Below, piece by piece: positions 19,446 through 43,560 of a stretch of DNA of 64,000 nt (positions are counted from its first letter, which is position 1; each line of letters begins with the position of its first letter). The notes beneath the pieces are model-generated. The model saw only the letters and a list, made by a program, of their open reading frames with translations. It had not been told where the DNA came from and searched no databases. The stretch comes from a virus. A program made the translations under genes and the position numbers. The stretch spans positions 64,001 through 128,000 of the IMG/VR virus record IMGVR_UViG_3300008954_000005; one strand, written 5' to 3'.

Positions 19446-21445
19446 ACCTGCGCTCTATCTGGGTCTGCGCGTGAAGGTAGTTTCTCCGGTAGGGGATTCA
19501 TGGACTTCACGCCAGCCCCAGATAGGGCATTATTCACCAACATGTAGAGATCAGGGTTGCTTGCACGGATTTGGGACATGGCCCGATACCTGTCCACCTC
19601 ATTCATCTTTTTTAGCTCTGAGGTGAGTTGCTTGGCCTGTGCAAACATATCTACCATGCCGCCGTTTTGTTGAGCCTGAACCGGACTCTGCTCCACCCCT
19701 TGGACAGGCCCGCCTTCTTGTTGCGGCGGCTGTTGTTGCTGTTGCTCCATTCCGGGAGGCGGTGCCCCCTGTTGTTGAGCGGCGGCTGGATCACCGCCGC
19801 CTTGCTGTGGCGGAGCGCCTCCTTGTTGCGGAGCACCACCGCCCTGTTGAGCGGCTGCTTGTTGCTGGGCCATTTCCGGGAATGCCTGTTGCAACTCCTG
19901 CTGAGACTCTGCCTGTAGGAATTGAGCCTGTCCCTGATACCGAGTATTGATGAGCATTGCTTCGCCCTGAGCGCTCGCCTGTGCGATCATTTGCTCACGC
20001 TGCTGCTTATTCATCTTCGTCAGTTCAGTGCTGATAAGTTCCTGCTCGCTCTCAAAGTTAAAGTCTCGGGACTCCAAGAAGGTTCTGCGACTAATCATGT
20101 TTGAGCCAGCAAGCTGCATATCAAACTGTGCTCGCTGGATGTCGTCAGCCATCTTGAATGGCTTGAACTTCAGTTTGATTTTAGGAAGATCCAAGAAAGC
20201 GCACACACGATCACGGATAAACTCAACGAGACGAAGCATATCCTGCCGATTTCCCAAAAACTCATTCTCTAGCGCCCTAAGATTCACTGAGGCCCCTGAG
20301 TACTGCTGCTCTCCGTAAAAGAACCCAGTGGGAACACCCATTCCAGCGATTATTTGATCATTATAAATTCGGAGTTCTTGGTGGAGGAGTAGTGACCGCC
20401 CTTGCCCGCCAATCATCTGGTAGCCAACGGGGACAGGCATCACCGGGATATGGTTGTTGTCCTGCCGCCACTTCTTAATCTGACTAGAGACCTCTTCCTG
20501 CCAATCCTGAAGATTGATGTGTGCGTAAGGGTTGTTCCCGTCTGTAGTTACCTGTGGAAACATGACCCGCATGGGGACGATGTGCTCCATGGCGACAGCT
20601 TCCTGAGCTTTCCTCAAGACCTGTAGAAAGAAAATATCCTTAAGCACTGGGAGGATGAGTGGAGCACCCCAGCCACTATCGGAGGGGGCTCTTGAGATTG
20701 ATGCACGTTTCGCGTGAAACAGTTTAGAGCTTTCGAGAAGGATGCTCTTCTTCTTCCGCATTGCCTCGATAAAAGCCTGCGGCACCGTTTCGATGATTGA
20801 GGGTTTACCGAGGGTGATATCGTTTTTGATATAGCGAGGAACCTCGTAGTAATACTCGCTTTTCCCGGTAATTTCGTTGTAGTTGATTTTGATGTTCTTC
20901 GGATTCCAACGAATAAGCCGAATCTGTAGGCCAGCCTTTACTGGCTCATCCTTTACACCAGCAATCCCTTCGTGCCCGCACGAGTCGCAAGTGATGTGGA
21001 ATTGATAGCTCTTCCACTTGTACTTGATCTTCCTTGCCTCGTAGTCTGCCTTGCACTCCTTACAAGTAAGAACCTTTGTAAAGGGGAAGGATACGGAGAC
21101 AAAAGCATTGCCGTACGTGTACCTATCTAGATTCGTTTCTACGAGGAACTGCCGCAGCAAAAACTGCTTTTCGAAGATCTCTTTGTATCGCTCTGTGACG
21201 CCTTCGTTATCGTCCTCATAGATAAGGTCGGTAATGGCGTAAGTTGCGAGCTTCTGCGTAATGCTGCTGACCAGGGGATTAGTAAGCTGGTAGTACAAGC
21301 ACCAGTCAAAAGTATCTTTGATCGTTTTGGGTAGATAGTTTTGTGCAACGTCAAAAAAGGGACTCGGGTAGAACTTTTCTGGTCTGCCCACCGTGGATGC
21401 GCGGGCTCTACCGCCTGAAACGTAACGACCAATATTACTAGACAT
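19442..21445 (-). CDS. portal protein with Zn-ribbon insertion and Q/P/G-rich tail
   Basis: Portal-like pattern (YTYGNAFV, LIRWNP..I, GWGAPLILP, IIAGMGVP, GASVNLRALEN); CKEC...CDSC insertion; lies in the head module. Confidence 0.75.
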   Translation of the reverse strand: MSSNIGRYVSGGRARASTVGRPEKFYPSPFFDVAQNYLPKTIKDTFDWCLYYQLTNPLVSSITQKLATYAITDLIYEDDNEGVTERYKEIFEKQFLLRQFLVETNLDRYTYGNAFVSVSFPFTKVLTCKECKADYEARKIKYKWKSYQFHITCDSCGHEGIAGVKDEPVKAGLQIRLIRWNPKNIKINYNEITGKSEYYYEVPRYIKNDITLGKPSIIETVPQAFIEAMRKKKSILLESSKLFHAKRASISRAPSDSGWGAPLILPVLKDIFFLQVLRKAQEAVAMEHIVPMRVMFPQVTTDGNNPYAHINLQDWQEEVSSQIKKWRQDNNHIPVMPVPVGYQMIGGQGRSLLLHQELRIYNDQIIAGMGVPTGFFYGEQQYSGASVNLRALENEFLGNRQDMLRLVEFIRDRVCAFLDLPKIKLKFKPFKMADDIQRAQFDMQLAGSNMISRRTFLESRDFNFESEQELISTELTKMNKQQREQMIAQASAQGEAMLINTRYQGQAQFLQAESQQELQQAFPEMAQQQAAAQQGGGAPQQGGAPPQQGGGDPAAAQQQGAPPPGMEQQQQQPPQQEGGPVQGVEQSPVQAQQNGGMVDMFAQAKQLTSELKKMNEVDRYRAMSQIRASNPDLYMLVNNALSGAGVKSMNPLPEKLPSRADPDRAQV
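19606..19617 (+). terminator. putative sequence-specific termination signal TCTTTTTTAGCT, copy 1
   Basis: Exact 12-mer shared with the terminators at 41628 and 43548; 160 nt after the 19167-19445 gene; antisense within the portal CDS. Confidence 0.5.
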
Positions 21446-21454
21446 AATAATCCC

Positions 21455-22114
21455 CTACGGAAGAAGCCGTTTTAACTGAATAAGAAGCATTCTGGAAGAA
21501 CTCTCCAAGAAGTCTTGCACAGTAATGCACTTCATAATTTGTACGTCATCCTCGTTCACACCATCAAACGTGGGGACATATTTCCGGTCCAAAGCCGCCT
21601 TTACTCGCAACTGCTGCTCCCGAGAAACAAACTTAAGTAGGTGTTCGTTGCACGGACCCAGCGGACCCGGCCCGTAGGCCAAGCCGTAATCCATCATGCA
21701 CGCGGCGGTGTACTTGTACACCTCATCCGAAATCTTTGTGCCCTCTTTTACTTGGCTTAGCACATCTAATGCAAAGGCCGCTCTGTGTGGAGAGGGCTTC
21801 TGTATCAAGTCGAACTTGGGTGGTGTCCCTAAAAGCCCAGAGCAAACAAGATCGAATACTTCCCAACGCTCGTAGGGCTGGTCCGTTGTGTGGCAAGTCC
21901 GGATAGCCTGGATTTTATTTCTGTTTACTTCAGAAACGGTTGTTCCCCATGTACGGGAAATCTCAAGCCAACAAGTTTCCGGTTCCCAACCAAGGTACTC
22001 AGGACCAAACTCCTTAACCAAGAGAAGGTTCAGTACAAGTGGGTGCGCAGACTTATTCGTGAACGCGTGTTTGGGGGAGCCCAAACCACTATTAGCCTTA
22101 ATGGGCTTCATCAA
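21455..22114 (-). CDS. hypothetical protein upstream of portal
   Basis: 219-aa ORF coupled to its neighbours. Confidence 0.75.
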   Translation of the reverse strand: MMKPIKANSGLGSPKHAFTNKSAHPLVLNLLLVKEFGPEYLGWEPETCWLEISRTWGTTVSEVNRNKIQAIRTCHTTDQPYERWEVFDLVCSGLLGTPPKFDLIQKPSPHRAAFALDVLSQVKEGTKISDEVYKYTAACMMDYGLAYGPGPLGPCNEHLLKFVSREQQLRVKAALDRKYVPTFDGVNEDDVQIMKCITVQDFLESSSRMLLIQLKRLLP

Positions 22115-23093
22115 TCATCCGAGCGATTGCTTGCTTGTGGGTAGTCGGTAGGCTGGACAACACCGTGGCTGGGTCAGCCTGGAATTGCTCCTTGAAGTCC
22201 TCACCAAAAGCATCTTCTAGTTGTGAGGCTCCGCCACCTGTAACCCAAGAAGCGATCCTGTCGGATGTATATTCGTTTCCACCAATCTCTACCGGGCGCT
22301 CTACGTTTGCGGCCTTCTCAATAGTAGAGCCAAATACGGATGCGTACGGATCCAATATTACGTTGTTATAATGGTGGGTAATCTTGTACTTCTCATCAAA
22401 CTCTGTGAGGGCTTCGGCCAAAGGCTCCCCAACAAACCCAGCGGACGCCTTTTTCTGAAGCTCTTCTAATTCGATGATGGCGTCGGCCTCCATAAGAACG
22501 AGTCTTCTTGTATCGAGAGCAAGATTGAAGTCACTTCCGATATCATCAGCAGCATAATTAGCCAGCTTTTCGGAGAACTCTGCGCCTGCCTCTTTAACCT
22601 GAAGAGCCAAGCGACGTTTTCCTCTTGGGGAGAGGCCGCTGAATGCATCCTCAACCAACTCCATGTTGTCCTCGTCTGAGCCGGTAAACCCAAACAGGGT
22701 CTCAAGAGACATATCCTCGCCCTCACCACTGTAACCAACCTCAATTGCGGCAGTCTTAGTGAGTTCTTCAGGGGGCGTAAAGCCAAAAGAGACTAGGGCC
22801 TCATTCAGCTTCTTCGCAGCTTCCTTGCGGAGGTCTCCAGGCAGAGAATCCCCGTACTCAGCGAAGTAAATCGCTGATGCAACGGTGTTCCCAGCGTCAC
22901 ACACAGGATAACGGTATTCCGTACCATGCTCAGTTTCAGCAACTAGAGCGTAATCTTCAGCATGCTTAATCGTTGCTTCCGACAAGTTTGCGGCAACTTT
23001 AATAATTGCAGGAACGCCCTTGTCAGAAAGCTCCCTTCGAAGGAAGCGTCCTTCATCGTCATACTGGTCGTAAACATTTGAAAAGCTTGGCAT
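22098..23093 (-). CDS. acidic K-x-A-rich putative head/scaffold protein, first gene of the minus-strand block
   Basis: ATG at 23093 with SD GGAG; KVAA, KHA, KEAA, KTAA, KEAG, KLA, KKAS, KAA motifs; YRYPVCDAGNT..SAIYF motif. Confidence 0.75.
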   Translation of the reverse strand: MPSFSNVYDQYDDEGRFLRRELSDKGVPAIIKVAANLSEATIKHAEDYALVAETEHGTEYRYPVCDAGNTVASAIYFAEYGDSLPGDLRKEAAKKLNEALVSFGFTPPEELTKTAAIEVGYSGEGEDMSLETLFGFTGSDEDNMELVEDAFSGLSPRGKRRLALQVKEAGAEFSEKLANYAADDIGSDFNLALDTRRLVLMEADAIIELEELQKKASAGFVGEPLAEALTEFDEKYKITHHYNNVILDPYASVFGSTIEKAANVERPVEIGGNEYTSDRIASWVTGGGASQLEDAFGEDFKEQFQADPATVLSSLPTTHKQAIARMIDEAH

Positions 23094-23118: not shown

Positions 23119-23138
23119 TTTTTGGTATAAGCACTTTG
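23119..23138 (+). promoter_or_regulatory. putative phage-RNAP promoter, copy 2 (TTTTTGGTATAAGCACTTTG)
   Basis: At the strand switch heading the replication block; matches the motifs at 19043 and 42768. Confidence 0.7.
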
Positions 23139-23179: not shown

Positions 23180-23452
23180 ATGTCAAATGATAAACCGTAT
23201 ACCATTAATGTAGAAGTGCCAACTGATTCTATAACAACAGATGAACCCAGAGAAGTTCCTGAAATTTTAGTAACTGGTTTGATGGACTTATTCAATAGGA
23301 TCTCCCGCAGTCTCCGCAAACCACCCTCTCAAGATACCACAGGGACTGCGCTTGAAACCGGTGGAACCATCATAGATATCGACTTTGACGAAGTATCTGC
23401 TTGTGACAAAGAAGATTCTGTCATATATCATGATAGCGATCAAGACAACTAG
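23180..23452 (+). CDS. small acidic hypothetical protein
   Basis: MSNDKPY start with SD GGAGG; 90 aa. Confidence 0.6.
   Translation: MSNDKPYTINVEVPTDSITTDEPREVPEILVTGLMDLFNRISRSLRKPPSQDTTGTALETGGTIIDIDFDEVSACDKEDSVIYHDSDQDN
23403..23435 (+). promoter_or_regulatory. sigma70-like promoter (GTGACA-N17-TATCAT) overlapped by inverted repeats, probable operator
   Basis: TGACA-N10-TGTCA (23404-23423) and palindrome TATCATGATA (23426-23435) lie just upstream of the XRE gene. Confidence 0.55.
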
Positions 23453-23463
23453 CAGAGGACTCT

Positions 23464-23901
23464 ATGAAAACAAAATCTCGTTTCGGCACGGTTTTGTCAA
23501 CCATGCGAACCAGCCGCAGACTGTCCTCTCGTAAATTTGCAGAATTGTGTGGATTAAATAGAGAGACGTACCGTCAGTACGAAACGGGCAAAGTTTTACC
23601 GCCAAACCAGAGTTTGGAGAAGATTCTTAAGGCACTCGACCTTGACCCCAGTAAAGACGAAGAGGCTAAACGGCTGATAGCGGCTCTATACGAAGAACGA
23701 AGTAAAAGAGAGCCCGCAGCTAAACGAGCTTTTGGTGCCGCCGCTAACGCGGAACTTCGGAAATATATTAAAAAGGACTCCATCTCAGAAGACAAGACCG
23801 CCCGAATAGTGGACTTGTTCTTTGAGCACCTCCCAACAGAACGAACGGAGAGTATGGAACATTTTATCTCGGGGGCAATAACCCGGATATTGGAGAAGTA
23901 A
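23464..23901 (+). CDS. XRE-family HTH transcriptional regulator
   Basis: FGTVLSTMR...LSSRKFAELCGLNRETYRQYETGKVLP...LEKILKAL. Confidence 0.88.
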   Translation: MKTKSRFGTVLSTMRTSRRLSSRKFAELCGLNRETYRQYETGKVLPPNQSLEKILKALDLDPSKDEEAKRLIAALYEERSKREPAAKRAFGAAANAELRKYIKKDSISEDKTARIVDLFFEHLPTERTESMEHFISGAITRILEK

Positions 23902-23902
23902 C

Positions 23903-25306
23903 TTGAAACCCTACCTACCAGAAAGTGACCAGGGTGCGTCGCTTGAAGGTCTAGTTTGTTGTTCTGCTTCCGTTTGGGTTCCCTCTGAGCGGTTGACCAA
24001 CAAGCAAGCCTTCATACGAGCAGCCACGATCAATGTGGTAAACGACCGGACTGGGGATGTAACCTCAGTACCGCTAGCCGCAGAAGTAGGGGATTACGTT
24101 GTAATAGCTAGACACTTTTTCACTAAAGAGGTCTGGTTAGAGAAGGTAGAGTCTTGGGAACAAGTCTCTCTTTCCTACGAATCTTTTGACTTCGGTGACA
24201 AGATCACACCTAGAGACGCTGACCAGCTTGCTGCTTGGGAAGCCTTCTCTGAAAGAAATCACGGCGTCTTGAACCTAGCCTGCGGAAAAGGCAAAACCGT
24301 CCTAGCACTAAAAAAGATTGCTCAGCGCGGACATCCCGCCGTCGTTGTGGTGAACAACAGTGGCCTTATGGATCAATGGAAAGAGCGTGCATTAGAGTTT
24401 TTGGACATCTCAGAAGATGACATCGGTATCGTGCAAGGCCCAAAGGCTGAGTGGGATAAACCTCTTGTCATCGCCATGATTCACACCCTCGCAAAACGAG
24501 CAGACTCTATCCCCTTGGATATCCGAACCCGTTTTGGAACTGTTGTGTTTGATGAAGTACACCACCTCTCGGCCACAACCTTTAGCCAGACAGCCCCATT
24601 ATTTTTCGGTAATAGGTTCGGCTTAACCGCTACACCTTGCCGGGAAGATGGCTTAGAAGATGTGTACTACTCTCATGTAGGGCGCATTTTCTATAGTGAT
24701 TTAGCTGGTGACATAGAGGCGGAGATATACTTCAAGAAGGTGTCCACCCCAATGCCAAAAGACACCTCGGTGATTAAAGACATCACCGGAGAGTTCTCGG
24801 CGGGGAAGATGTACAAATACTTTGCGGAGCACGACGCCCGCAACGTCGCCCTTTTAAAGACGGTCGAGTCCGCGTTGGACAGTGGAAGAAAAGTCCTTGT
24901 CCTCACGCACAGTAAGGATCATCCAGCCATCATGGTTGAGAAGTTTCTGGACAGCCCGTGTAAGGAAAGGTATACAGCAGGGGCGGTTTCAGGGGATACC
25001 CCCGGAGACCTCCGAACGAAAATAATTGAAGATAACAACGTGACTTTCGCCACTTTTGGGGTTGCCCGTGAGGGGCTGGATGTCGCAGCACTGGACACGC
25101 TTATTTTTGCTAGTCCATTTAAGGCTTGGGGGGCGTTTCAACAAGGGAAGGGGAGAATTGAACGCCGCCACAAAGACAAGAAACCCCCAGTGGTTATCGT
25201 TTTAGACGACTATAACTTTGGCCCAGCCAGGGCAATGTGTAAACACCTAAGGAAGAGTATTAGAGCCAATGGATTTAGACACAGTGACATCGGAAGAGAA
25301 GATTGA
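23903..25306 (+). CDS. superfamily 2 DNA helicase (UvsW/XPB-like)
   Basis: LACGKGKT, VFDEVHH, GLTATP.REDG, REGLDV, QQGKGRIER. Confidence 0.9.
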   Translation: MKPYLPESDQGASLEGLVCCSASVWVPSERLTNKQAFIRAATINVVNDRTGDVTSVPLAAEVGDYVVIARHFFTKEVWLEKVESWEQVSLSYESFDFGDKITPRDADQLAAWEAFSERNHGVLNLACGKGKTVLALKKIAQRGHPAVVVVNNSGLMDQWKERALEFLDISEDDIGIVQGPKAEWDKPLVIAMIHTLAKRADSIPLDIRTRFGTVVFDEVHHLSATTFSQTAPLFFGNRFGLTATPCREDGLEDVYYSHVGRIFYSDLAGDIEAEIYFKKVSTPMPKDTSVIKDITGEFSAGKMYKYFAEHDARNVALLKTVESALDSGRKVLVLTHSKDHPAIMVEKFLDSPCKERYTAGAVSGDTPGDLRTKIIEDNNVTFATFGVAREGLDVAALDTLIFASPFKAWGAFQQGKGRIERRHKDKKPPVVIVLDDYNFGPARAMCKHLRKSIRANGFRHSDIGRED

Positions 25307-25937
25307 GAACTTACTGTTCGAACAACGCTCTTGCACCTCATGTGGTCTCCACAGAAACCGCAAAGTTCTTCTTTGTGGAAAAGGCAGTCCTAGTACCCAC
25401 CTTGTAGCTGTAATTGATCGCGTCGGCCCAAGGGCCGCTGTGACAGGCGATATTCTCTCAAGCGGTGAAGGCCGGTTCCTGAACACTCTGTTCAAGAGAG
25501 CCGGAATGAGTCCAGCGGCTATTTGGGTTACCCCAGTAGTATCTTGCCCGACAGGGGGGCTTAGGCCACAACCACGTCGAATAGAGATGCTTCCGGCACC
25601 GAAAAAGTCAGAAGTAGAAGCATGTAATACACGGCTCCACCAAGAGATTCATCTAATTGAGCCTTGCCTTATATTTGCCTTCGGCTCCGCTTCAGTGAAC
25701 GCGCTTGTTCCAAACGTAAAGGTTCAAGAAGTACAAGGGCGGGTAGTAGAGGCCTTCATTCAGGGAGACCTAATTAAATACCCAGTGCCTACTATGGCAC
25801 TCCCATCTGTCAACCAACTGTATAGAAACCCGTCACAAAAAGTCGGGGGTATATGGAATAAGACACTAGATAACATACGCGTGGGTTTAGATATAGCCCA
25901 CAGAATCAAATCCTTAAGGAGGAATCAACATGGCTAG
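25269..25937 (+). CDS. uracil-DNA glycosylase family-4-like protein with degenerate active site
   Basis: CTSCGLHRNR, G.GSP, VVSCP, P...EVEAC..RLHQEI.LIEP, LYRNP follow the UDG-F4 fold; GEAPG and HP motifs are missing. Confidence 0.8.
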   Translation: MDLDTVTSEEKIENLLFEQRSCTSCGLHRNRKVLLCGKGSPSTHLVAVIDRVGPRAAVTGDILSSGEGRFLNTLFKRAGMSPAAIWVTPVVSCPTGGLRPQPRRIEMLPAPKKSEVEACNTRLHQEIHLIEPCLIFAFGSASVNALVPNVKVQEVQGRVVEAFIQGDLIKYPVPTMALPSVNQLYRNPSQKVGGIWNKTLDNIRVGLDIAHRIKSLRRNQHG

Positions 25938-26352
25938 TGAACGAGAAGTACGGAAGCTTGAGAAAGCTTTCGCAAACAAAAGAGATCAATTGTTGGAATT
26001 TATGGCTGACCACGAGCAAGTGTTTGACCAGTTCCATCAACTTGTACAGGAGTACAACGTTTCTCGCAGTAATGCGATTGACGCATTTAGAAGTCGTCCC
26101 GGAACGGACCCCATGTCTATCGGGATTATGGACCGCTCACGGGCACCAGAAACCTGGGCCTACGAGCCCCATGAACTTCCGTCTTCATATCTGAAGACCC
26201 CTGGCGTCGTTAAATCCGTTGATAACCGTGTAATCGAGCAAGGTATTGTTGCAGGTACCTTCGACGCCGACTTGATTAACGGTGCTAGAACCAAAAAGCA
26301 CGGCACCCCACGGGTCTCGGCCCCGAAGGAAGTCGTTATTAAGGTCGCATAA
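25930..26352 (+). CDS. hypothetical protein
   Basis: SD AAGGAGG; 140 aa; N-terminal coiled coil. Confidence 0.75.
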   Translation: MASEREVRKLEKAFANKRDQLLEFMADHEQVFDQFHQLVQEYNVSRSNAIDAFRSRPGTDPMSIGIMDRSRAPETWAYEPHELPSSYLKTPGVVKSVDNRVIEQGIVAGTFDADLINGARTKKHGTPRVSAPKEVVIKVA

Positions 26353-26786
26353 TGCGTGCTCGCATGCACGACGGGGAGGGTGCTTACGGCACCCTCTCCG
26401 TCTTTATACGAAAAACGTGGAAAGATGGACCATCTAAAAAAGATAAGGAGTACGAAATGGCCGAAAGACTTGAAGATCGAATCCCCGTTCGAGACTTAGT
26501 ATTTGAACGAGACGATGGATACGCTGCTGTTACAGCCAGCGTATCCACAAAAGTATCAGACTCAGTACATTACGCAGAAGGGACCTGGGATAAGATCCCA
26601 TACAGCGTTGAGGTTTTCTCAAGTGTCACGCTTCAGTGTGACCAGAACGCCGACACTATCCGTGCTGCGCACAACATGGCATATGACTTGGCTTGGGAGG
26701 CTTCTCGTGAGCATCTCGGTAAAGCCATGATGGGCCATGTTACAGACATTAGAACACGGTTGTATGAGGAACGATTCAATGATTGA
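26352..26786 (+). CDS. hypothetical protein
   Basis: TAATG coupling; 144 aa. Confidence 0.7.
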   Translation: MRARMHDGEGAYGTLSVFIRKTWKDGPSKKDKEYEMAERLEDRIPVRDLVFERDDGYAAVTASVSTKVSDSVHYAEGTWDKIPYSVEVFSSVTLQCDQNADTIRAAHNMAYDLAWEASREHLGKAMMGHVTDIRTRLYEERFND

Positions 26787-27081
26787 ATTTAACAGCAACC
26801 GAATAAACGGCCTCAAGTGTTTTGAGGTTACGGTGTCCTGGCACCACCATGGGACCAATGTGCGTCCTACGGTGGAGGCCAGTATCGCGTACTTAACGGA
26901 GGGAAAAGCCGCAGGTATGGCGACGTCTAATGAGTTCTCTGAAGAAGTTCTGACAAAAGCACAACAGCTTGTTGAGGCGATTGAGTCAGAATTTCTGAAG
27001 GGCGTTGGCGGTAGTGAGGATGACACCAGTGAAGAGGCAGTACGTACAACCATCAAAGGCTTAGTAGACAGGGAGTTCTAA
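26779..27081 (+). CDS. hypothetical protein
   Basis: MIEFNSN start with SD GAGGA; coupled to DnaB. Confidence 0.65.
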   Translation: MIEFNSNRINGLKCFEVTVSWHHHGTNVRPTVEASIAYLTEGKAAGMATSNEFSEEVLTKAQQLVEAIESEFLKGVGGSEDDTSEEAVRTTIKGLVDREF

Positions 27082-28505: not shown

Positions 28506-28507
28506 GG

Positions 28508-34059: not shown

Positions 34060-34228
34060 AGTAATAATCGAGGATGAGCTTAAAGCCGACAGCTTCGAAA
34101 GGGCGCTCGTAGTAACCCTAGATCGTATTGAGACCGAAGAAACCGTAGCCTCCGTGGAGTGTCTCTCTACGGGGGAAGTACGGCACTACGAAATACAAAC
34201 AGGAGAAAGGTTAGATGACGAATCATGA
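34040..34228 (+). CDS. small hypothetical protein
   Basis: MEQKHY..., coupled ORF. Confidence 0.55.
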   Translation: MEQKHYRVIIEDELKADSFERALVVTLDRIETEETVASVECLSTGEVRHYEIQTGERLDDES

Positions 34229-35146: not shown

Positions 35147-35148
35147 TT

Positions 35149-35896: not shown

Positions 35897-35899
35897 TAG

Positions 35900-36448
35900 A
35901 TGAACCTGAGCGAGTACCAAAGGTTAGCAGCGAGAACCATCCCAGTAGAAGAAATAGATAGCCTTCTAACGAACTTTTGTTTAGGTCTTGCTGGGGAGGG
36001 TGGGGAGTTGATTGACCACGTTAAGAAAGCGGTCTTTCATAAGCACGCCCTTGATAAAGATTACTTGGCTAAAGAGCTTGGTGATCTCCTTTGGTACATC
36101 GCCGGGATTTCGAGCATATTAAAACTCGACCTGTCGGACATAGGTGATATAAATATAGACAAGCTGAAGCGCCGTTATCCGAACGGCTTCACAACCCATC
36201 ACAGTGTTCACCGGGAGGAAGAATTGGACATAAATGACATGATCAAGAAGCGGCAAGTAGCCTTACTAGAAATCATCGGATCAGTGAATACCACTGTCAC
36301 CGAGGGTGATGCCGTCGTTGGGGCCTTCCTCGACATAGACCAAGGCTACGTTGAGCTAGAAGATGGCTCTGGCTACCGAATGTCTATGGGACCAGTAACC
36401 AAGTCTGAGATGCGTTCCGTGAAGAAACGCCTAAACCTAGAAGAGTAA
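35900..36448 (+). CDS. MazG-like nucleoside triphosphate pyrophosphohydrolase
   Basis: YQRLAART, LGLAGEGGE..D.VKK, KELGDLLWY, NIDKLKRRYPNGF. Confidence 0.9.
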   Translation: MNLSEYQRLAARTIPVEEIDSLLTNFCLGLAGEGGELIDHVKKAVFHKHALDKDYLAKELGDLLWYIAGISSILKLDLSDIGDINIDKLKRRYPNGFTTHHSVHREEELDINDMIKKRQVALLEIIGSVNTTVTEGDAVVGAFLDIDQGYVELEDGSGYRMSMGPVTKSEMRSVKKRLNLEE

Positions 36449-36452
36449 TATT

Positions 36453-36698
36453 ATGGAAAAATACAGCGACGCCTCCCAACTTGTCGCAACACTTCTGAAG
36501 ATGAAGCTCTGCGATTCTGAAGAGGCTGCGATGGAAAAAATAGCTTCCGGGAGAGCCCCCCAAATGATTAAGGACTTCAAGATGAAGCTGCTTAACGACA
36601 TGGTCAGTCTGTACAGAGACCAGCTTGGGGATGACGGTATGGACCCAGAACTTATCGAAGAATTTGAAAAAATGAGAAAAGAACTAGAGGAGACCTGA
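36453..36698 (+). CDS. small hypothetical protein
   Basis: 81 aa; coupled to RecA. Confidence 0.65.
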   Translation: MEKYSDASQLVATLLKMKLCDSEEAAMEKIASGRAPQMIKDFKMKLLNDMVSLYRDQLGDDGMDPELIEEFEKMRKELEET

Positions 36699-37780
36699 TG
36701 GCCAAAAAAGATCTAAGCCACCTCATTAAATCGGTACAAAAGCGTCTCGGTGGAGCCGCGACAGTTACCCCCATTACAGAGGTAGAGACCCCGTTTGATA
36801 CGAGGCTCCCTACCGGAATATTATCGCTTGATATCGCGTTAAAAGGCGGGTTGCCCGGTGGCTCAATGATCCAACTTTTCGGGCCAGACGGCGTAGGTAA
36901 AGACTACCTTTCGAACCGAGTGATTGCTGAGGTACAGCGGACACACGGAGACGCAGCTAACATTGCCTGGATGAGCTTCGGATACAAACCGGACCCAGGG
37001 TTCATGGAACTGGCTGGTATTGATCTAGATTGCGGAAACCTACTCTTTGTCGATCTCGCTACCACCGACTCCGATGCACCAGCAGAGACAATGCTGGACG
37101 CCATGCTAGAGATGGTTAAATCCCAGGAGTTCCACTTGTTGATCATCAACGAACTCGGCTCCGGAGAAACGCGACACAATCTAGTTAAAGGCCTGGGCGA
37201 AGACGCAAAAATCGCTACGTGGGCTTCTTTACTTAGTTCCTTCTGTCAGAAGTTCTACTCTGCCATGCGCGTTCCTGGCGAGGACGGCAAGCCCAACCAG
37301 ACTTGTGTAGTCATGATTAACCCGGTTCGGGCAAACATGAACGCGCACAGCGCGAAGTACGTTCCTTACACCCAGCCTGGGGGATACGCCCTCAAGCACG
37401 CAAAAGCTGTAGATATTCACTTGAAGCCGGGTCAGACCCTAAAGAAGGGAACGACAAAAATCGGAAAAGAGATCAAGTGGAAAATCTCAAAAGGCAAGCA
37501 CGGGATTAGCGAGGGTGCTGAGGGGAGCTATAGCTTCATCTTCAACCAAGGCGTAGATTTAGTTCAAGACCTAGCGCGTGCAGCAAAGGCACACGGTGTG
37601 GTTAGGAATAGCGGTCCTGTTTACTATATCCTCGATTACGAGGATAAAATCAAAGGTGGCCTGGATGGGGTAGTCTCAATGTTGAGATCGTCCCCAGAAC
37701 TAGCCGCTGAAGTCCGAGCCGCAGTGCTGGGTAAAACACCCAATGAAGAGGAGCCTTCTGATGATGAAGTACTTACCTGA
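36698..37780 (+). CDS. recA: RecA/UvsX-like recombinase with non-canonical ATPase motifs
   Basis: LPTGILSLDIALKGGLPGG, FGPDGVGK, TQPGGYALKH, KGKHG, GVDLVQDL, G..Y. Confidence 0.88.
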   Translation: MAKKDLSHLIKSVQKRLGGAATVTPITEVETPFDTRLPTGILSLDIALKGGLPGGSMIQLFGPDGVGKDYLSNRVIAEVQRTHGDAANIAWMSFGYKPDPGFMELAGIDLDCGNLLFVDLATTDSDAPAETMLDAMLEMVKSQEFHLLIINELGSGETRHNLVKGLGEDAKIATWASLLSSFCQKFYSAMRVPGEDGKPNQTCVVMINPVRANMNAHSAKYVPYTQPGGYALKHAKAVDIHLKPGQTLKKGTTKIGKEIKWKISKGKHGISEGAEGSYSFIFNQGVDLVQDLARAAKAHGVVRNSGPVYYILDYEDKIKGGLDGVVSMLRSSPELAAEVRAAVLGKTPNEEEPSDDEVLT

Positions 37781-38039
37781 ACCAGCTATTTTCATAGTGT
37801 TAATCTCATTCCTCGTCGTCTCTACCGGTTGGTACCTGTTCTGGATCCAACCAAACGATGCGAAGTTAGCGAAAATACACGCCTGTATGGGCGAAAAATA
37901 CGCCGACCTACAACAAGCCGATGGCGATCTCTGGCGAGTTTACGCTCGCTCTGGAACACTCTCGGCTAGTGCGGCAGGTAATGAGCTAGACCACGCTATT
38001 TACACCTCGTGTGTGAGACAGCTAAATACCGGTAACTAG
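37761..38039 (+). CDS. small membrane protein
   Basis: N-terminal TM helix AIFIVLISFLVVSTGWYLFWI; two Cys. Confidence 0.65.
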   Translation: MMKYLPEPAIFIVLISFLVVSTGWYLFWIQPNDAKLAKIHACMGEKYADLQQADGDLWRVYARSGTLSASAAGNELDHAIYTSCVRQLNTGN

Positions 38040-38040
38040 C

Positions 38041-38808
38041 ATGGCAAGACTCTGTATTCGGATAGGGCCAAAAGCACAACCGCACTATGTAGATGGGTTC
38101 CCCTTCCTTCCTGGGCTGTACTTTCACAAGCCGCCCAAGAAGGCAAAGGGGGGCACAGAGTATTCCATCACGCATATAAAGAGCGGTCTTGCGGTCCTCC
38201 CGAATATAGATGAGCGTCACCTAGAGCTATGCCGAATGATTCTAGGGCGCGTAGACTGGGACAAGGGCGCGGAACAGATTTACAACGACACAACATATGA
38301 CATCGTAATAAAGGAGGCATTAGCTGTGACCACAAACCGCGATGCTAGTAAAAAACAAGAGAAGCGCATCGCGAAAGAACTTGAAGGAAAAACTCAAGCA
38401 GGCTCCGGGTCAGTTTGGGGGTTCAGACGGGATGTGGTGACACCAGAGCTTCTGGTGGAAGCGAAGACAACAACAACGGGGAAATACGCCCTAAGCTTAA
38501 AAGACCTAAAGCACTTGAAATTTCAAGCATATTCAGAAGGTAAAATACCTGCGTACATAATAGAGTTTGCGAGGAAAGGTGAGGTAGCCATAGTCCCATT
38601 TCAGGATCTAGGAGAAGATTTCCTAGAAGAGCTTTCTTCTACTAGGGATATCCCAAGCAAAAAGAAATCTTCAAAGATATTAACTATTTCTCTAGAGATG
38701 GCCGCAGACGTTTTCAATGACGTAGGCGTGCGATTTACCGTTGAGTCGGATGAGTATCTACTGATGAGCTACGAGAATTTCCTCACCTTTGCGAAAAGAG
38801 GTATATGA
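38041..38808 (+). CDS. PD-(D/E)XK nuclease, Holliday-junction-resolvase-like, with extra N-terminal domain
   Basis: KKQEKRIAKEL.G.TQAGSGS....RDV...LLVEAKTT. Confidence 0.75.
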   Translation: MARLCIRIGPKAQPHYVDGFPFLPGLYFHKPPKKAKGGTEYSITHIKSGLAVLPNIDERHLELCRMILGRVDWDKGAEQIYNDTTYDIVIKEALAVTTNRDASKKQEKRIAKELEGKTQAGSGSVWGFRRDVVTPELLVEAKTTTTGKYALSLKDLKHLKFQAYSEGKIPAYIIEFARKGEVAIVPFQDLGEDFLEELSSTRDIPSKKKSSKILTISLEMAADVFNDVGVRFTVESDEYLLMSYENFLTFAKRGI

Positions 38809-38809
38809 A

Positions 38810-39523
38810 ATGGCAAAGAAAAAAGGATTTAGGATTCCAGCACGCTGCCTAAACGAAAAGAAGATAAAAGAGGACGGAGAGTTCTCAGTATTAAAAGAAA
38901 TAGAGCGTATTGACTTCGAATCAAACCTAGAGCCTTGGTCTAGAAGAACCGGTGGGTATCACCCATCCTCTCTTACGCCAACGGCCTGTAAACGTGCTCT
39001 TTGGTACGACCGGACAGGGCAAGAGCCCGAAAGCCGAATCCCATCAGATCTCCGTATGCTGTTTGACATGGGGCACGCGCTTCACGACATGATCCAAGAG
39101 AAGCTTGAGAAGGAGTTCGACGGATTCAACGCCGAGATCCCAATCAGTAACGAAGACCTCCACATCGTGGGCCACTGCGACGGAATATTCCGTGATAGGG
39201 ACTGGCTACTTGAGATCAAAACAGTGGGCGAGAGTGTGTTTAAATCACTTGTTCGGCCCAAGAAAGAGCATATCTACCAAGTACACTGTTACATGTTCTG
39301 CGAGGACGTCCCAAGGACTCAGCTACTTTACGTGGCTAGGGCGACGGGACAGATGCGACTCTTCAAGATTGAGTTCGACAACGACATCTTCCAGGAAATT
39401 GTGAGCATAATAAAGACAGTTGAAGAATTTGTAGAGGCTGGAGAAGCCCCTCCAAAGGAACCAAACAAATGGGTATGTAGAACATGTAAGTTTCAGCATG
39501 TCTGCCAGCCCTTCAGCGAGTAG
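38810..39523 (+). CDS. Cas4-like PD-(D/E)XK exonuclease with Fe-S cluster
   Basis: HPSSL..AC.R.LWY, GHALH, GHCDG, LEIKT, QVHCY, CRTCKFQHVC. Confidence 0.85.
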   Translation: MAKKKGFRIPARCLNEKKIKEDGEFSVLKEIERIDFESNLEPWSRRTGGYHPSSLTPTACKRALWYDRTGQEPESRIPSDLRMLFDMGHALHDMIQEKLEKEFDGFNAEIPISNEDLHIVGHCDGIFRDRDWLLEIKTVGESVFKSLVRPKKEHIYQVHCYMFCEDVPRTQLLYVARATGQMRLFKIEFDNDIFQEIVSIIKTVEEFVEAGEAPPKEPNKWVCRTCKFQHVCQPFSE

Positions 39524-39532
39524 GAGGTGCCT

Positions 39533-40078
39533 ATGGCTGAGAAGGATTTATTCCTTGAATTACGTGAAACACTAGAAAAAGATCTGCGTGCCACGGGTTT
39601 TGCTCCTGATCGGGAGCCACCCAGTGAAGAACCTAGACTACCTGCTGGGTTGAAGGACTTACCGAACGAAGACCTCAAAGAACTCTACGATGATTTCTTG
39701 GCGTTCTTTGAGTATCTTTCTGATCAAGTTGCTAAAGCCAGTAGCTACATGTCCGTCAGTAAAGCGAGACTTGAGGCGGTAACCGCGACGGCAACTCTTG
39801 CATCTGCCAAAGATAAAAAGTTAACCAACGCAGACCTCCGAAAGGCGTACGTCGTAACTGCCTGTTTAGGGGCAAAGCGGGACTACGTTTACTTCAAGGC
39901 AAAGGTAGATGTCCACGATGCTAGGCTAAGAAAGATAAGCAAAAGCATGGACAGAATCGGAAGAGAGCTATGGTTTAGAACACAAGATGAGCCCGAGCGT
40001 AACTCTGAGTTTTCCTTGAGTAAATCAAAGCCAGCAAAGAAATTTGCCGGGGGTTATAAGCCGGTGTCTCGTGAATAA
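39533..40078 (+). CDS. coiled-coil protein, possibly UvsY-like recombination mediator
   Basis: SD AGGAGG; long helical protein within the recombination cluster; function inferred from context. Confidence 0.55.
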   Translation: MAEKDLFLELRETLEKDLRATGFAPDREPPSEEPRLPAGLKDLPNEDLKELYDDFLAFFEYLSDQVAKASSYMSVSKARLEAVTATATLASAKDKKLTNADLRKAYVVTACLGAKRDYVYFKAKVDVHDARLRKISKSMDRIGRELWFRTQDEPERNSEFSLSKSKPAKKFAGGYKPVSRE

Positions 40079-40505
40079 AAATAAGACGGTGTTCACTGCA
40101 GAGTTGACGTTGCTACCACCGTCAGTTAACAATATGTATATCTATACTGCTCGTGGGCCTAGGCCGTCTAGCAAGATGAAACAGTTTAAAGCGAAAGCGT
40201 CTATGGAGATAGCCCAACAACTGTCCTTTGACGGGAGCCCTCTAAACGGAGACAAGCCCCATCGACTAAGTATTTACTACTACCTACCAGCCTTGTTCAA
40301 CAAGGGGTGGCCAACAAAGGCCAAGACCCGATTCAAGCGGCGGGACGTATCAAACTTAGTAAAGGTGTTAGAGGACGTACTGGCCGACTGTTTAGGTATC
40401 GACGATTCTTGTTTCACGGAGGAGTTTATTCAGAAATTAGACGGACCCGCCCATGACTTCGTGGGCATCAAAATAAAAATAGAAGAGCTTAGCGATGAAT
40501 CCTAA
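40071..40505 (+). CDS. rusA: RusA-family Holliday junction resolvase
   Basis: PPSVNNMY, RDVSNLVKVLEDVL..GIDDS. Confidence 0.88.
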   Translation: MNKNKTVFTAELTLLPPSVNNMYIYTARGPRPSSKMKQFKAKASMEIAQQLSFDGSPLNGDKPHRLSIYYYLPALFNKGWPTKAKTRFKRRDVSNLVKVLEDVLADCLGIDDSCFTEEFIQKLDGPAHDFVGIKIKIEELSDES

Positions 40506-40779
40506 AACAGGTAAGGAGGAACTAAGGCACATAGTCCTAGAACAAACAGGAGTCCGTGTGTCTCCATCAACAAAGCTAGAAGACCTACACAGTTTTCTGC
40601 AATTCAACCTAGAGGAAATACCAGAAACGCCTATCAATCAAATGAGAAATAGTCTTATAGCTTTTATTGAAAACAACCGTAGCAGGCTTTCCCTCCCATG
40701 TAATGGTAACTGCTACGAGCATCATGATGGGGTTGTATTATTCTGCTATAAACAACTCCTGGAGGAAGAAAATGGGTAA
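40495..40779 (+). CDS. hypothetical protein
   Basis: 94 aa; LPC.GNC..H....V..CY motif. Confidence 0.65.
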   Translation: MNPKTGKEELRHIVLEQTGVRVSPSTKLEDLHSFLQFNLEEIPETPINQMRNSLIAFIENNRSRLSLPCNGNCYEHHDGVVLFCYKQLLEEENG

Positions 40780-41563
40780 AGTAACAAAGAAAATGTTGAC
40801 CCCGCTCGACCGAGCGGAAATTAGAAAAATCGTAATCGTGGGAATGGGGATGGAACCCCTTGAAGCGTACACCAAGAAAGAGGGCGAAACGATCTCTTGG
40901 ATTCAAGAGCGTGCTGAAGACTTTGCGTCTCTGGACCTAGAGACCATTGGCGCGGAACAGTTCCGACCAAATGTCGTAGCGTACCTACAGCAGTTGCAGC
41001 AATTCATTCTTGGTAACTCCAAGGCTCCCACCTTCCCTACTGGCGGGGCCACGGAAGAGGCAGTGGAAGCTGAAGAAGGCACTGCTGTCACTGTTGAACC
41101 TCCTAAGAAGAGGAAGCGTGGACGTCCCCGCAAAAACCCGGTAGTAGAAACTGCTGCTACTGAAGAAACTGTCGAAGCTGCCCCTGCTAAGCGAAAGCGC
41201 GGTAGGCCACGCAAGACCACTACAGACGCCAAAGCTGCTACTAAGACGGCTACCAAGAAGCAGGAAACCACCGCCAAGAAAAAGAAGGGCGGCTTCCGAG
41301 TAAAGAAGACTGCTGCTGAAGCTGTTGAGGTGGTGAAGGAAGAAATTCCAACCACTACGCCTGAGGTCACCCTTAGTGTGGGTACCGACCTTAATTCCTT
41401 CCTGACGGGGATTGATAGCCTCCGTGGGGAGGTTCAGGCGATGCGTGCTGAGCAAGCGGCGATGTACGCTGATTTGCATGACGCTTTGGTATACATCCTT
41501 AATACGGCGATCATTGAAGACGATGATGACCTTATTAAGGACTTGTCACAACTAAAGAAGTAG
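40772..41563 (+). CDS. AT-hook/histone H1-like DNA-binding protein
   Basis: Two KRKRGRPRK AT-hooks, K/A/T-rich tract, C-terminal coiled coil; SD GGAGG. Confidence 0.8.
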   Translation: MGKVTKKMLTPLDRAEIRKIVIVGMGMEPLEAYTKKEGETISWIQERAEDFASLDLETIGAEQFRPNVVAYLQQLQQFILGNSKAPTFPTGGATEEAVEAEEGTAVTVEPPKKRKRGRPRKNPVVETAATEETVEAAPAKRKRGRPRKTTTDAKAATKTATKKQETTAKKKKGGFRVKKTAAEAVEVVKEEIPTTTPEVTLSVGTDLNSFLTGIDSLRGEVQAMRAEQAAMYADLHDALVYILNTAIIEDDDDLIKDLSQLKK

Positions 41564-41594: not shown

Positions 41595-41640
41595 GAAGGG
41601 GGGATCACCATCACGGTGGTCCCCCCTTCTTTTTTAGCTA
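41595..41640 (+). terminator. intrinsic terminator ending the replication block, with TCTTTTTTAGCT tail
   Basis: Stem GAAGGGGGGATCACC/GGTGGTCCCCCCTTC, U-tract, then AGCTA. Confidence 0.85.
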
Positions 41641-42675: not shown

Positions 42676-42767
42676 ATAATAATTTTTATTATTTAATAAT
42701 TACAGCGTAATAAAATACCCATTATCACTACGTAATAAATGCCCAAAAAGTGCAAAAATAGGGGTGT
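42676..42767. repeat. AT-rich intergenic element with an inverted repeat and a direct repeat
   Basis: ATAATAA-TTT-TTATTAT (42676-42692); CGTAATAAA(A)TRCCC twice (42706-42720, 42731-42744). Confidence 0.55.
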
Positions 42768-42787
42768 TTTTAGGGATAAGAATAGTG
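42768..42787 (+). promoter_or_regulatory. putative phage-RNAP promoter, copy 3 (TTTTAGGGATAAGAATAGTG)
   Basis: Matches the motifs at 19043 and 23119; heads a two-gene plus-strand unit. Confidence 0.7.
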
Positions 42788-43085: not shown

Positions 43086-43496
43086 ATGTTGCAAGCAATC
43101 AGGCCTGCTGGTCAGGCCATCATTCAGAACCGAACTGTTCAACAGTTCGTCCTTGCCGTAGGATGCGGCGTCACCACGCTCTACACGATCCGTGCACTAG
43201 ATAATCTAGGCGCACGTCGTCGTCGGTGGGCGAGCAATCGTCAGGCCCTGAAGGCCCAACGACAGGCTGCGAAGCTGGCAAAGGCTGAAGAAGCGAAGGC
43301 TGTTGAAGCCTCCACTGCTACTCCCGAGCCGGTGACGGAGGCTGTTGTTTCCGACGCTGTTCAGACCGTCATGGAGGGTGCAAGCTTTAACGAGCTTCGC
43401 GCTGCTGCCAAGTCGCACGGTCTGGATGTTGGTCCTCACCCGACCAAGGAAGCGTTGGCTCGCGCCATCGTGGAGTTCCAAACCGCCTCAGCATAA
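43086..43496 (+). CDS. membrane-anchored protein with C-terminal Rho-N/HeH (SAP/LEM-like) domain
   Basis: SD AAGGAGG; hydrophobic FVLAVGCGVTTLYTI; basic coiled linker; SFNELRAAAKSHGLDVGPHPTKEALARAI. Confidence 0.75.
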   Translation: MLQAIRPAGQAIIQNRTVQQFVLAVGCGVTTLYTIRALDNLGARRRRWASNRQALKAQRQAAKLAKAEEAKAVEASTATPEPVTEAVVSDAVQTVMEGASFNELRAAAKSHGLDVGPHPTKEALARAIVEFQTASA

Positions 43497-43520
43497 TCTT
43501 ATTCTGAGGAAGACAGTCAG

Positions 43521-43560
43521 AAAGAGGAGGGGGGTAACACCCCCTTCTCTTTTTTAGCTA
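43521..43560 (+). terminator. intrinsic terminator with TCTTTTTTAGCT tail
   Basis: Stem AAAGAGGAGGGGG/CCCCCTTCTCTTT, U-tract, then AGCTA. Confidence 0.85.

What the first reader, a model, noticed from the sequence alone, without database searches (positions are those of the whole stretch)
19606..43559. Identical 12-mer TCTTTTTTAGCT follows all three motif-led units, once without a strong hairpin
Exact copies at 19606-19617, 41628-41639 and 43548-43559. A given 12-mer is expected about 0.004 times per strand in 64 kb at uniform composition. Two copies follow classical hairpins. The third lies antisense within portal coding sequence, 160 nt after the Cys-rich gene, with no strong hairpin. Conservation of AGCT beyond the U-tract suggests sequence-specific termination, analogous to T7 class II or poxvirus signals, possibly assisted by the SNF2 ATPase (inference).
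Basis: partly seen in the sequence, partly recalled or inferred. Interest (0 to 1): 0.72.

Follow-up and report, generated by a model that had tools for sequence, protein, structure and literature searches.

The report
Conserved tail of phage transcription terminators
The repeated 12-mer is the U-tract plus a conserved "AGCT" tail of this phage group's own transcription terminators. One copy is hidden antisense inside the portal gene and is kept there by selection on silent codon positions, which makes it a testable case of a stop signal embedded in coding sequence.

Summary
TCTTTTTTAGCT occurs exactly three times, on the + strand only, and shuffles never reach this.

Two copies (41628, 43548) are the tails of strong canonical hairpin terminators at convergent gene junctions. 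A third hairpin terminator with TTTTTTAGCT lies outside the window, at genome position 27251.

In this 155.7-kb phage, which encodes a fused beta-beta' RNA polymerase, and in four relatives, strong terminators sit almost only on the early/replication (+) strand. After the T-run they show A in 74% of cases and A-N-C-T in 25%, against 4% at other T-runs (p=4e-7). Relatives with 35-38% portal identity have canonical terminators ending TTCTTTTT(T)AGC(T/C) at the same junction.

The hairpin-less copy (19606) is not chance:
- Across 18 portal genes, its xTA codon is the only one of 560 degenerate codon columns with an invariant third base.
- Where the motif decays, a new T-run+AGC(T/C) appears nearby in another reading frame.
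- One lineage embeds a canonical hairpin+U-tract in the portal codons instead.

It most likely marks the 3' end (termination or pause) of a small convergent + strand unit. Hairpin-independent termination, a role for the SNF2 ATPase, and a strict need for AGCT are not supported. A -1 frameshift site (A_AAA_AAG) remains a minor rival.

The parts
19043..19062 (+). Promoter-like motif TTTTAGGTATAAGAAC.. heading the small convergent + unit
   Evidence: the motif occurs on the + strand only. It is conserved upstream of the same unit in all close relatives and in distant L038 and L075.
19150..19218 (+). Micro-ORF (22 aa) with RBS GAGGTG. It carries the motif C-E-L-x-x-A-V-E-x-x-L, which is conserved in relatives.
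   Evidence: Sequence read. Homologous small ORFs are seen.
19221..19445 (+). Cys-rich ORF (the longest frame starts at 19167). Its stop overlaps the portal stop, so there is no intergenic room for a terminator.
   Evidence: (tblastn homologues in 23 loci).
19452..19528 (+). Long hairpin in the + strand RNA just after the Cys-rich ORF, antisense to portal codons
   Evidence: region 19446-19620 folds at -63.6 kcal/mol, z -3.35, 0 of 200 shuffles as good.
19606..19617 (+). 12-mer copy 1: T-run plus AGCT tail embedded antisense in portal codons E-L-K-K-M. Candidate 3'-end or pause signal of the small + unit.
   Evidence: the only invariant silent position of 560 columns, and the top 2-3-codon window for silent-site conservation.
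19442..21445 (-). Portal gene that hosts copy 1 on its antisense strand
   Evidence: 34% to an annotated portal, E 7e-79.
23119..23138 (+). Promoter-like motif heading the replication module (helicase, DnaB, primase, PolA, RecA)
41595..41629 (+). Terminator hairpin closing the replication module
   Evidence: An orthologous terminator is present in 13 relatives.
41628..41639 (+). 12-mer copy 2 (U-tract plus AGCT). It overlaps the TAA stop of the convergent 331-aa gene.
42767..42787 (+). Promoter-like motif TTTTTAGGGATAAGAAT heading the third small + unit
43526..43548 (+). Terminator hairpin of the third + unit
43548..43559 (+). 12-mer copy 3 (U-tract plus AGCT). It abuts the TGA-TAG tandem stops of the convergent 2883-aa gene.
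53015..53055 (+). A further + strand hairpin terminator (tail TTTTATTAG) in the gap between two - strand genes
12780..19013 (-). Fused beta-beta' RNA polymerase gene (context: the phage has its own multisubunit-type polymerase)
   Evidence: Rpb2 domains followed by Rpb1 domains in one ORF.
5070..6857 (-).
   Evidence: SNF2-rel_dom, 64.6 bits.

Best explanation
The 12-mer is the 3' end of this phage group's intrinsic terminators for its + strand (early/replication) transcription programme. The terminator form is a G/C-run hairpin whose base often reads ..CCTTC, then a T-run of 5-7, then a preferred tail A-(G/C/T)-C-(T). Copies 2 and 3, and a fourth copy outside the window, are canonical terminators at junctions where a + unit meets the 3' end of a - strand gene.

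Copy 1 is the same U-tract plus tail written into the antisense strand of the portal gene. The stop of the small convergent + unit (promoter, micro-ORF, Cys-rich ORF) overlaps the portal stop, so its transcript can only end inside portal codons. There the signal is kept by selection on silent positions. It lies at the 3' side of a ~160-nt conserved, structured + strand RNA.

Shown here: the sequences, their strand bias, the tail enrichment, the silent-site constraint, the covarying structure, and the relocations of the signal in relatives.

Inferred, not shown: that RNA 3' ends form here; that copy 1 acts as a terminator or pause site although its hairpin is about 13-27 nt away; and which polymerase (host or phage) reads the signals.
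For: 1. Strong hairpin+T-run sites are almost all on the + strand in this genome and four whole relatives (14:4, 14:4, 10:7, 13:1, 12:3).
2. After the T-run, A follows in 39 of 53 terminators, against 38% at other T6 runs. A-N-C-T follows in 13 of 53, against 82 of 1980 (odds ratio 7.5, p=4e-7).
3. The orthologous terminator after the 298-aa gene keeps T-run+A in all 13 relatives while the hairpin sequences differ completely. AGCT recurs in relatives at 33-35% identity.
4. Distant relatives (35-38% portal identity) end the same convergent unit with canonical intergenic hairpins plus TTCTTTTTAGCTGG (L038), TTCTTTTTTAGCTAC (L224, the same 15-mer as window 41626-41640) and TTCTTTTTAGCCC (L187).
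5. Copy 1: in 18 non-redundant portals the xTA codon (CTA 12, ATA 4, TTA 1, GTA 1) is the only one of 560 degenerate columns with an invariant third base. The preceding E/Q codon ends in G in 16 of 16. AAA is used in 12 of 14 Lys codons although the genome prefers AAG (65%). The 2- and 3-codon windows rank first in the gene.
6. Relocation: L023, L025 and L029 have a degraded primary T-run and carry a new T5-6+AGC(T/C) 20-30 nt further on. It is built from GCT-AAA-AAx codons in a different frame. The L075 lineage lacks the primary motif and embeds a 14-bp hairpin directly followed by UUUUUAGG in other portal codons. That stem uses G.U pairs possible only on the + strand.
7. A + strand hairpin upstream of copy 1 covaries (AU/GC/UA/UG at one pair; 0 of 500 shuffles reach the score) and has U.G pairs in 9 of 12 sequences. 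The 160-nt + strand RNA folds at mean z -3.9 against -2.8 for the sense strand, and is better in 14 of 18 (p=0.008).
Against: There are no RNA data, so no 3' end has been observed.

At copy 1 the nearest conserved stem ends about 13 nt (extended) to 27 nt (core) before the T-run, and the window's own local hairpin is no better than shuffles. Canonical intrinsic termination needs the stem to abut the U-tract: lengthening that distance by 2 nt turned a terminator into a pause site (bioRxiv 10.1101/2020.08.07.241513, read).

The tail is a preference, not a rule: 40 of 53 terminators lack A-N-C-T. At orthologous terminators AGCT is replaced by ATCT, ATGT or ACCC.

At three of four AGCTA junctions the tail overlaps the stop codon of the convergent gene, which could partly explain it there.

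The sense strand of copy 1 is a perfect in-frame A_AAA_AAG heptamer, and the silent T of the following N/D codon (13 of 13) fits a -1 frame stop rather than a terminator.

I did not test whether T-run+A is also typical of the unknown host's terminators.
Confidence: 0.58

Rival explanations
1. One reading: T-run+AGCT is a self-sufficient, sequence-specific termination signal read without a hairpin by the phage's own polymerase or a phage factor such as the SNF2 ATPase, in the manner of T7 class II or poxvirus early termination.
For: Copy 1 has no adjacent hairpin yet is under selection. The tail is conserved over large evolutionary distance while hairpin sequences change. The phage encodes a fused beta-beta' polymerase and an SNF2-family ATPase.
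Against: All other instances in five genomes carry strong adjacent hairpins. T5+A[GC]C is as frequent in sense orientation inside + strand genes (9 per 247 kb) as inside - strand genes (19 per 540 kb), so it is not avoided as a stand-alone terminator should be. The lineage that moved the signal rebuilt a hairpin next to it. Nothing links SNF2 to these sites.
Confidence: 0.12
2. Copy 1 is constrained on the sense strand. CTA-AAA-AAG places the dnaX-type slippery heptamer A_AAA_AAG in the portal reading frame, so a programmed -1 frameshift would make a portal lacking its last ~55 residues.
For: The perfect in-frame heptamer is present in 8 of 18 lineages. The Lys pairs are AAA-AAG in 8 lineages and AAG-AAA in 2, and never AAA-AAA. 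A -1 frame TGA lies 3 codons later in 7 of those 8. The N/D codon supplying its T ends in T in 13 of 13.
Against: Ten of 18 lineages break the heptamer yet keep the invariant xTA base. The constrained G of the preceding E/Q codon lies outside the heptamer but inside the terminator tail. There is no stimulatory structure at 5-9 nt: the distance is 11-12 nt in the window and 27 nt in relatives. The relocated motifs in L029 and L075 are not slippery heptamers. The structures favour the + strand.
Confidence: 0.1
3. Copy 1 serves another nucleotide-level function on the + strand RNA or on the DNA. Candidates are an RNase processing site at the end of a structured antisense RNA that regulates portal mRNA, or a protein-binding or nick site. 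Its likeness to terminator tails would then be secondary.
For: The constrained block spans about 17 nt (19601-19617), longer than a U-tract. The upstream 160 nt form a conserved structured RNA fully complementary to the portal 3' coding region. All copies are on one strand.
Against: The same tail ends bona fide hairpin terminators at the same junction in distant relatives, which is most simply explained by one shared function. No Rfam family matches.
Confidence: 0.15
4. Copy 1 is a coincidence. The conserved peptide E-L-K-K-M happens to be encoded so that its antisense strand equals the terminator tail.
For: The peptide is conserved, and K-K codons always give a T-rich antisense strand. Antisense T6 runs are common in genes of both orientations.
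Against: Neighbouring silent sites are saturated, while this codon is the only invariant one of 560. CTA, ATA, TTA and GTA are minority codons at 11-25%. The motif reappears in other frames and positions when lost. The chance expectation of a third exact copy is about 0.01-0.02 per genome.
Confidence: 0.05

Closest known systems
Canonical intrinsic (Rho-independent) terminators of bacteria and phages
   Same: A GC-rich hairpin is immediately followed by a 6-9 nt U-tract at the ends of transcription units. Copies 2 and 3, the genome-27251 copy and the L038, L187, L224 and L075 sites fit fully.
   Different: A preferred tail A-(G/C/T)-C-T after the U-tract is conserved across a virus clade. The terminators are confined to one strand or programme. 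One copy lies inside a coding region without an abutting hairpin.
Terminator-distal sequence effects at the early terminators of T3 and T7 (Telesnitsky and Chamberlin 1989; recalled from memory, not read here)
   Same: Bases just downstream of the release point modulate the efficiency of hairpin terminators.
   Different: That was an in vitro effect at single terminators. Here it is a comparative signature across many terminators, with no functional test.
NusG-dependent pausing and termination at TTNTTT in the non-template strand (Bacillus subtilis; bioRxiv 10.1101/2020.08.07.241513)
   Same: A T-rich DNA motif causes sequence-specific pausing, with the RNA 3' end several nt downstream of the T's. 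It helps weak terminators, and a T-run too far from its hairpin pauses rather than terminates. This is the best known mechanistic analogue for copy 1.
   Different: The host and its NusG type are unknown. No pausing data exist. The tail preference A-N-C-T is not part of the NusG motif.
T7 RNA polymerase class II termination signal (ATCTGTT followed by a U-run)
   Same: It is a hairpin-free, sequence-specific stop with a U-run.
   Different: It needs a single-subunit T7-type polymerase, and none was detected (control uninformative). The conserved element lies upstream of the U-run, not downstream.
Poxvirus early termination (U5NU in the RNA, capping enzyme/VTF and the SNF2-family ATPase NPH-I)
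   Same: It is a U-rich signal read by a virus-encoded multisubunit polymerase, with an SNF2-family ATPase in the virus.
   Different: The 12-mer does not contain TTTTTNT. The signal here is not avoided inside early genes. Strong hairpins accompany nearly all sites.
dnaX-type -1 programmed frameshift heptamer A_AAA_AAG
   Same: The sense strand of copy 1 carries the exact heptamer in the correct frame in 8 of 18 lineages.
   Different: There are no correctly spaced stimulators, it is not conserved in 10 of 18 lineages, and the constraint extends beyond the heptamer.

Membership tests
Intrinsic (Rho-independent) terminator | Stable GC-rich RNA hairpin | tested here: met
   Copies 2 and 3: -31.8 and -25.6 kcal/mol, z about -5, and the top hits of the independent scan. 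For copy 1 see the next row.
Intrinsic (Rho-independent) terminator | U-tract directly abutting the hairpin (release 7-9 nt after the stem) | tested here: not met
   This row refers to copy 1 only. No terminator-like site was found at 19606. The local fold is z -0.4. The conserved stem ends 13-27 nt upstream in relatives. The feature is met for copies 2 and 3 and for the embedded L075 site.
Intrinsic (Rho-independent) terminator | Position at the 3' end of a transcription unit, in the sense orientation of that unit | tested here: met
   All three copies follow + strand units headed by the GGTATAAG motif and precede - strand genes.
Intrinsic (Rho-independent) terminator | RNA 3' ends map in or just after the U-tract | not testable with these tools
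   No transcript data are available for this uncultured phage.
Poxvirus-type early termination signal | TTTTTNT motif in the coding strand | tested here: not met
   TCTTTTTTAGCT has A, not T, at the seventh position of every TTTTTN window (read).
Poxvirus-type early termination signal | Signal avoided inside early ORFs | tested here: not met
   T5+A[GC]C in sense orientation: 9 per 247 kb in + genes against 19 per 540 kb in - genes.
T7 class II termination signal | Single-subunit T7-type RNA polymerase present | tested here: inconclusive
   PF00940 gives no hit in the genome, but the control genomes could not ring either. The record is 87% complete.
T7 class II termination signal | Conserved ATCTGTT element upstream of the U-run | tested here: not met
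   It is absent upstream of copies 2 and 3. Near copy 1 only ACCTGTC is present, set by D-R-Y codons and variable in relatives.
dnaX-type -1 frameshift site | X_XXY_YYZ heptamer in the zero frame, conserved among homologues | tested here: inconclusive
   It is present in 8 of 18 lineages and broken in 10 of 18.
dnaX-type -1 frameshift site | Stimulatory structure 5-9 nt downstream and/or an SD-like element upstream | tested here: not met
   The downstream stem starts 11-12 nt away in the window and 27 nt away in relatives. No SD-like element lies 10-14 nt upstream.

The most novel reading that the evidence does not exclude
T-run+A-N-C-T is a polymerase-specific stop or pause code of a clade of marine phages that carry a fused beta-beta' RNA polymerase. 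The tail would be read on the DNA or the nascent RNA by the phage enzyme or a phage factor. This would let the signal work with a distant or weak hairpin, so it can be written into the antisense strand of essential genes such as the portal gene.
Probability: 0.2. Interest if true: 0.75.

Novelty: new variant of a known kind. Interest (0 to 1): 0.55.

Why it matters
Nothing is known about how phage-encoded multisubunit-type RNA polymerases of this uncultured clade start and stop. This locus offers a defined promoter motif and a defined terminator consensus with an unusual conserved post-U-tract tail. It also offers a natural series of variants: intergenic canonical, coding-embedded canonical, and coding-embedded with a distant hairpin. 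That series could be put straight into in vitro transcription assays. The locus is also a clean example of a regulatory signal on one strand constraining silent sites of an essential gene on the other strand. This matters for annotation, for codon-based selection tests, and for recoding or synthetic redesign of phage genomes.

Tried and rejected
- DNA similarity to deposited phages: no match.
- Relatives of the 331-aa and 153-aa neighbour proteins from single sequences: none found. An alignment query was needed instead.
- Rfam on 18900-19800: only a sub-threshold miRNA hit.
- Overlapping sense-strand ORF ending at the TAA formed by xTA-A: rejected, because the frames are 2-166 codons long and not conserved.
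- + strand ORF ending at TAG 19613-19615: rejected, because relatives have TAT, TAC or TAA there.
- A second U-rich stretch (TTRTTNAC after the first hairpin) as the real terminator: rejected, because its silent sites vary freely (columns 702-704).
- K-mer search for a - strand (late) promoter that might explain the sense-strand motif: it returned only the reverse complement of the + promoter and a weak AACTAAA signal.
- Sigma-70-type promoter scan: not above chance.
- Depletion of the motif inside + genes: not found.
- The mReC paper (PMC7481178) describes RNAP-encoding Caudovirales but says nothing on promoters or terminators. I did not test whether this phage belongs to that clade.

Full report
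**Observation**

TCTTTTTTAGCT occurs exactly at 19606, 41628 and 43548, on the + strand only. With one mismatch allowed there are 5 hits against 0.34 expected, and no shuffle reaches that.

The window is bases 64001-128000 of a single 155,722-bp virus record. In the whole record the 12-mer has the same three copies. TTTTTTAGCT has a fourth copy at genome position 27251, and TTTTAGCT is 9:1 in favour of the + strand.

**Context**

The + strand block 23181-41563 encodes an SF2 helicase, DnaB, primase, family-A DNA polymerase and RecA. The - strand carries a 2077-aa fusion of Rpb2-type and Rpb1-type domains (beta-beta' RNA polymerase), a portal, very large structural proteins and an SNF2-family ATPase.

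The motif GG(T/G)ATAAG(A/C)A, preceded by a T-run, heads the three + units of the window. It occurs only on the + strand. No deposited phage is similar at the DNA level. More than 170 portal relatives exist in viral and marine metagenome contigs.

**Copies 2 and 3**

Both follow very stable hairpins and are the two best terminator-like sites in 36-56 kb in the independent scan. Both sit where a + unit meets the 3' end of a - strand gene, as does the copy at genome position 27251.

My genome-wide scan found 14 strong hairpin+T-run sites on the + strand and 4 weaker ones on the - strand. Four complete or near-complete relatives show the same bias.

The T-run is followed by A in 39 of 53 + strand terminators, against 38% at other T6 runs. 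It is followed by A-N-C-T in 13 of 53, against 82 of 1980 other T-runs (odds ratio 7.5, p=4e-7).

The terminator that closes the replication module is orthologous in 13 relatives. The hairpin sequences are unrelated, yet every one has T-run+A, and AGCT(A/T) recurs even at 33-35% protein identity of the neighbouring gene. So the 12-mer is the generic tail of this clade's terminators, not a private repeat. AGCT is one favoured version beside ACC(T/C) and ATCT.

At three of the four AGCTA junctions, the tail read on the other strand (TAGCTAA) supplies the stop codon of the convergent gene, in two different frames. This may add to its persistence there but cannot explain the other cases.

**Copy 1**

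It lies antisense in portal codons GAG-CTA-AAA-AAG-ATG (E-L-K-K-M). Its left neighbour is a small convergent + unit:
- the promoter motif at 19043;
- a 22-aa micro-ORF (19150-19218);
- a Cys-rich ORF that ends at 19445, overlapping the portal stop.

This unit, with or without the Cys-rich ORF, is present in every close relative. No canonical hairpin abuts the T-run.

The peptide is conserved, so I tested the silent sites. In a codon alignment of 18 non-redundant portals (52-78% identity) there are 560 degenerate columns, with a mean majority share at the third base of 0.52.
- Exactly one column is invariant: the xTA codon (CTA 12, ATA 4, TTA 1, GTA 1). These codons make up only 11-25% of their families in this genome.
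- The preceding E/Q codon ends in G in 16 of 16 cases.
- The next Lys codon is AAA in 12 of 14, against a genome preference of 65% AAG.
- The 2- and 3-codon windows here rank first in the gene.

The exact 15-mer CATCTTTTTTAGCTC is shared by six separate lineages. Chance is therefore rejected.

**Which strand is selected?**

Several results point to the + strand.

(a) The constrained G of the E/Q codon is the C of the A-N-C-T tail. It lies outside the sense-strand slippery heptamer.

(b) L023, L025 and L029 have a degraded primary T-run. Each carries a second T5-6+AGC(T/C) 20-30 nt further on, built from GCT-AAA-AAx (A-K-K) in a different codon phase. Only these three lineages have K-K there.

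(c) The L075 lineage (61% portal identity) has no T-run at the usual place. Instead it has a 14-bp stem directly followed by UUUUUAGG, written into other portal codons about 55 nt after its Cys-rich ORF. The stem base uses G.U pairs that exist only in the + strand RNA.

(d) In relatives at 35-38% portal identity, the same convergent unit ends in the intergenic space with canonical hairpins plus a similar tail: TTCTTTTTAGCTGG (L038), TTCTTTTTTAGCTAC (L224) and TTCTTTTTAGCCC (L187).

(e) Upstream of copy 1, relatives share a hairpin with compensatory changes. One pair is AU 5, UG 5, GC 3, UA 2, and 0 of 500 shuffles reach the covariation score. RNAalifold extends it with a U.G pair present in 9 of 12 sequences.

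(f) The 160 nt between the portal stop and the T-run fold better than shuffles in nearly all relatives. The + strand does better than the sense strand: mean z -3.9 against -2.8, better in 14 of 18, p=0.008. In the window the core hairpin is lost, but a 25-bp stem (19452-19528) is present.

**What is not supported**

The motif does not behave as a stand-alone terminator.
- It is not depleted in sense orientation inside + strand genes.
- All other instances have strong adjacent hairpins.
- The lineage that relocated the signal rebuilt a hairpin beside it.

At copy 1 the conserved stem ends 13-27 nt before the T-run. For bacterial polymerase that spacing would give a pause rather than release (paper read). 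The step "RNA ends here" is therefore an inference, and the mechanism at this copy is open: a pause, factor-assisted termination, or a polymerase with looser geometry. Which polymerase reads the + strand signals is also unknown.

Sigma-70-type promoters are not above chance. A Sigma70_r2 search found nothing. No T7-type polymerase was found, but that control was uninformative. The SNF2 gene exists, with no link to termination.

**Rival: -1 frameshift**

The sense strand carries A_AAA_AAG in frame in 8 of 18 lineages. A -1 TGA lies three codons on in 7 of those 8, and the T that makes it is silent-site constrained (13 of 13). This keeps a frameshift alive as a minor rival.

It fails on four counts: conservation of the heptamer, spacing of stimulators, the constraint outside the heptamer, and the relocated motifs.

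**Verdict**

The thing itself is a clade-specific variant of ordinary intrinsic terminators. One member is embedded in the antisense strand of the portal gene and held there by selection. It is a good, testable comparative finding, but not a new kind of termination system on present evidence.

Noticed in passing
19150-19218 (+): A 22-aa micro-ORF with a good RBS and the motif C-E-L-x-x-A-V-E-x-x-L-x-G. Homologous small ORFs follow the same promoter in relatives L007, L009, L016, L017, L024, L029, L038 and L075, sometimes without any Cys-rich gene. The Cys-rich ORF probably starts at ATG 19221, not 19167.
   Followed up: partly
19050-19070 and relatives' loci: The promoter motif GGTATAAGAAC is followed within 2-5 nt by ATG or TTG in most relatives. 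This may mean leaderless transcripts or a conserved start region.
   Followed up: no
19452-19528 (+): A 25-bp inverted repeat inside portal codons (A-L-S-G-A-G-V-K paired with P-S-R-A-D-P-D-R-A). It gives a very stable + strand hairpin right after the Cys-rich ORF. Equivalent long stems occur in some relatives (L001, L005, L016) but are not conserved column by column.
   Followed up: partly
19607-19613 (-): An in-frame A_AAA_AAG heptamer in the portal gene, with a -1 frame TGA three codons later. This is a possible programmed frameshift and is treated as a rival explanation.
   Followed up: partly
genome 61021, 59080, 56468, 21248, 10406 (outside the window, - strand): AACTAAA lies 18-34 nt upstream of several - strand gene starts: 10 upstream regions in five genomes against 0.9 expected. 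It is a weak candidate late-promoter element, or merely stop-codon context.
   Followed up: partly
52876-53068: A 190-nt gap between two - strand genes holds a very stable hairpin (53015-53046). It is followed by TTTTATTAG on the + strand and by CCTTATTATC on the - strand. This is a possible bidirectional terminator or an unannotated small + unit.
   Followed up: no
genome 4405 and 4976 (outside the window): Two paralogous terminator-promoter cassettes: hairpin, TTTTTTTACCTGCAA, then GG(C/A)ATAAGAATTATG about 25 nt later.
   Followed up: no
43558-43563 (-): The 2883-aa gene ends with tandem in-frame stops TGA-TAG, and the TAG lies inside the terminator tail.
   Followed up: no
19628-19918 (+): A 96-aa antisense ORF starts just after copy 1, behind a GAGGTGA. 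It lies opposite the Q/P/G-rich low-complexity part of the portal and is most likely an artefact of that composition.
   Followed up: no
   Followed up: partly
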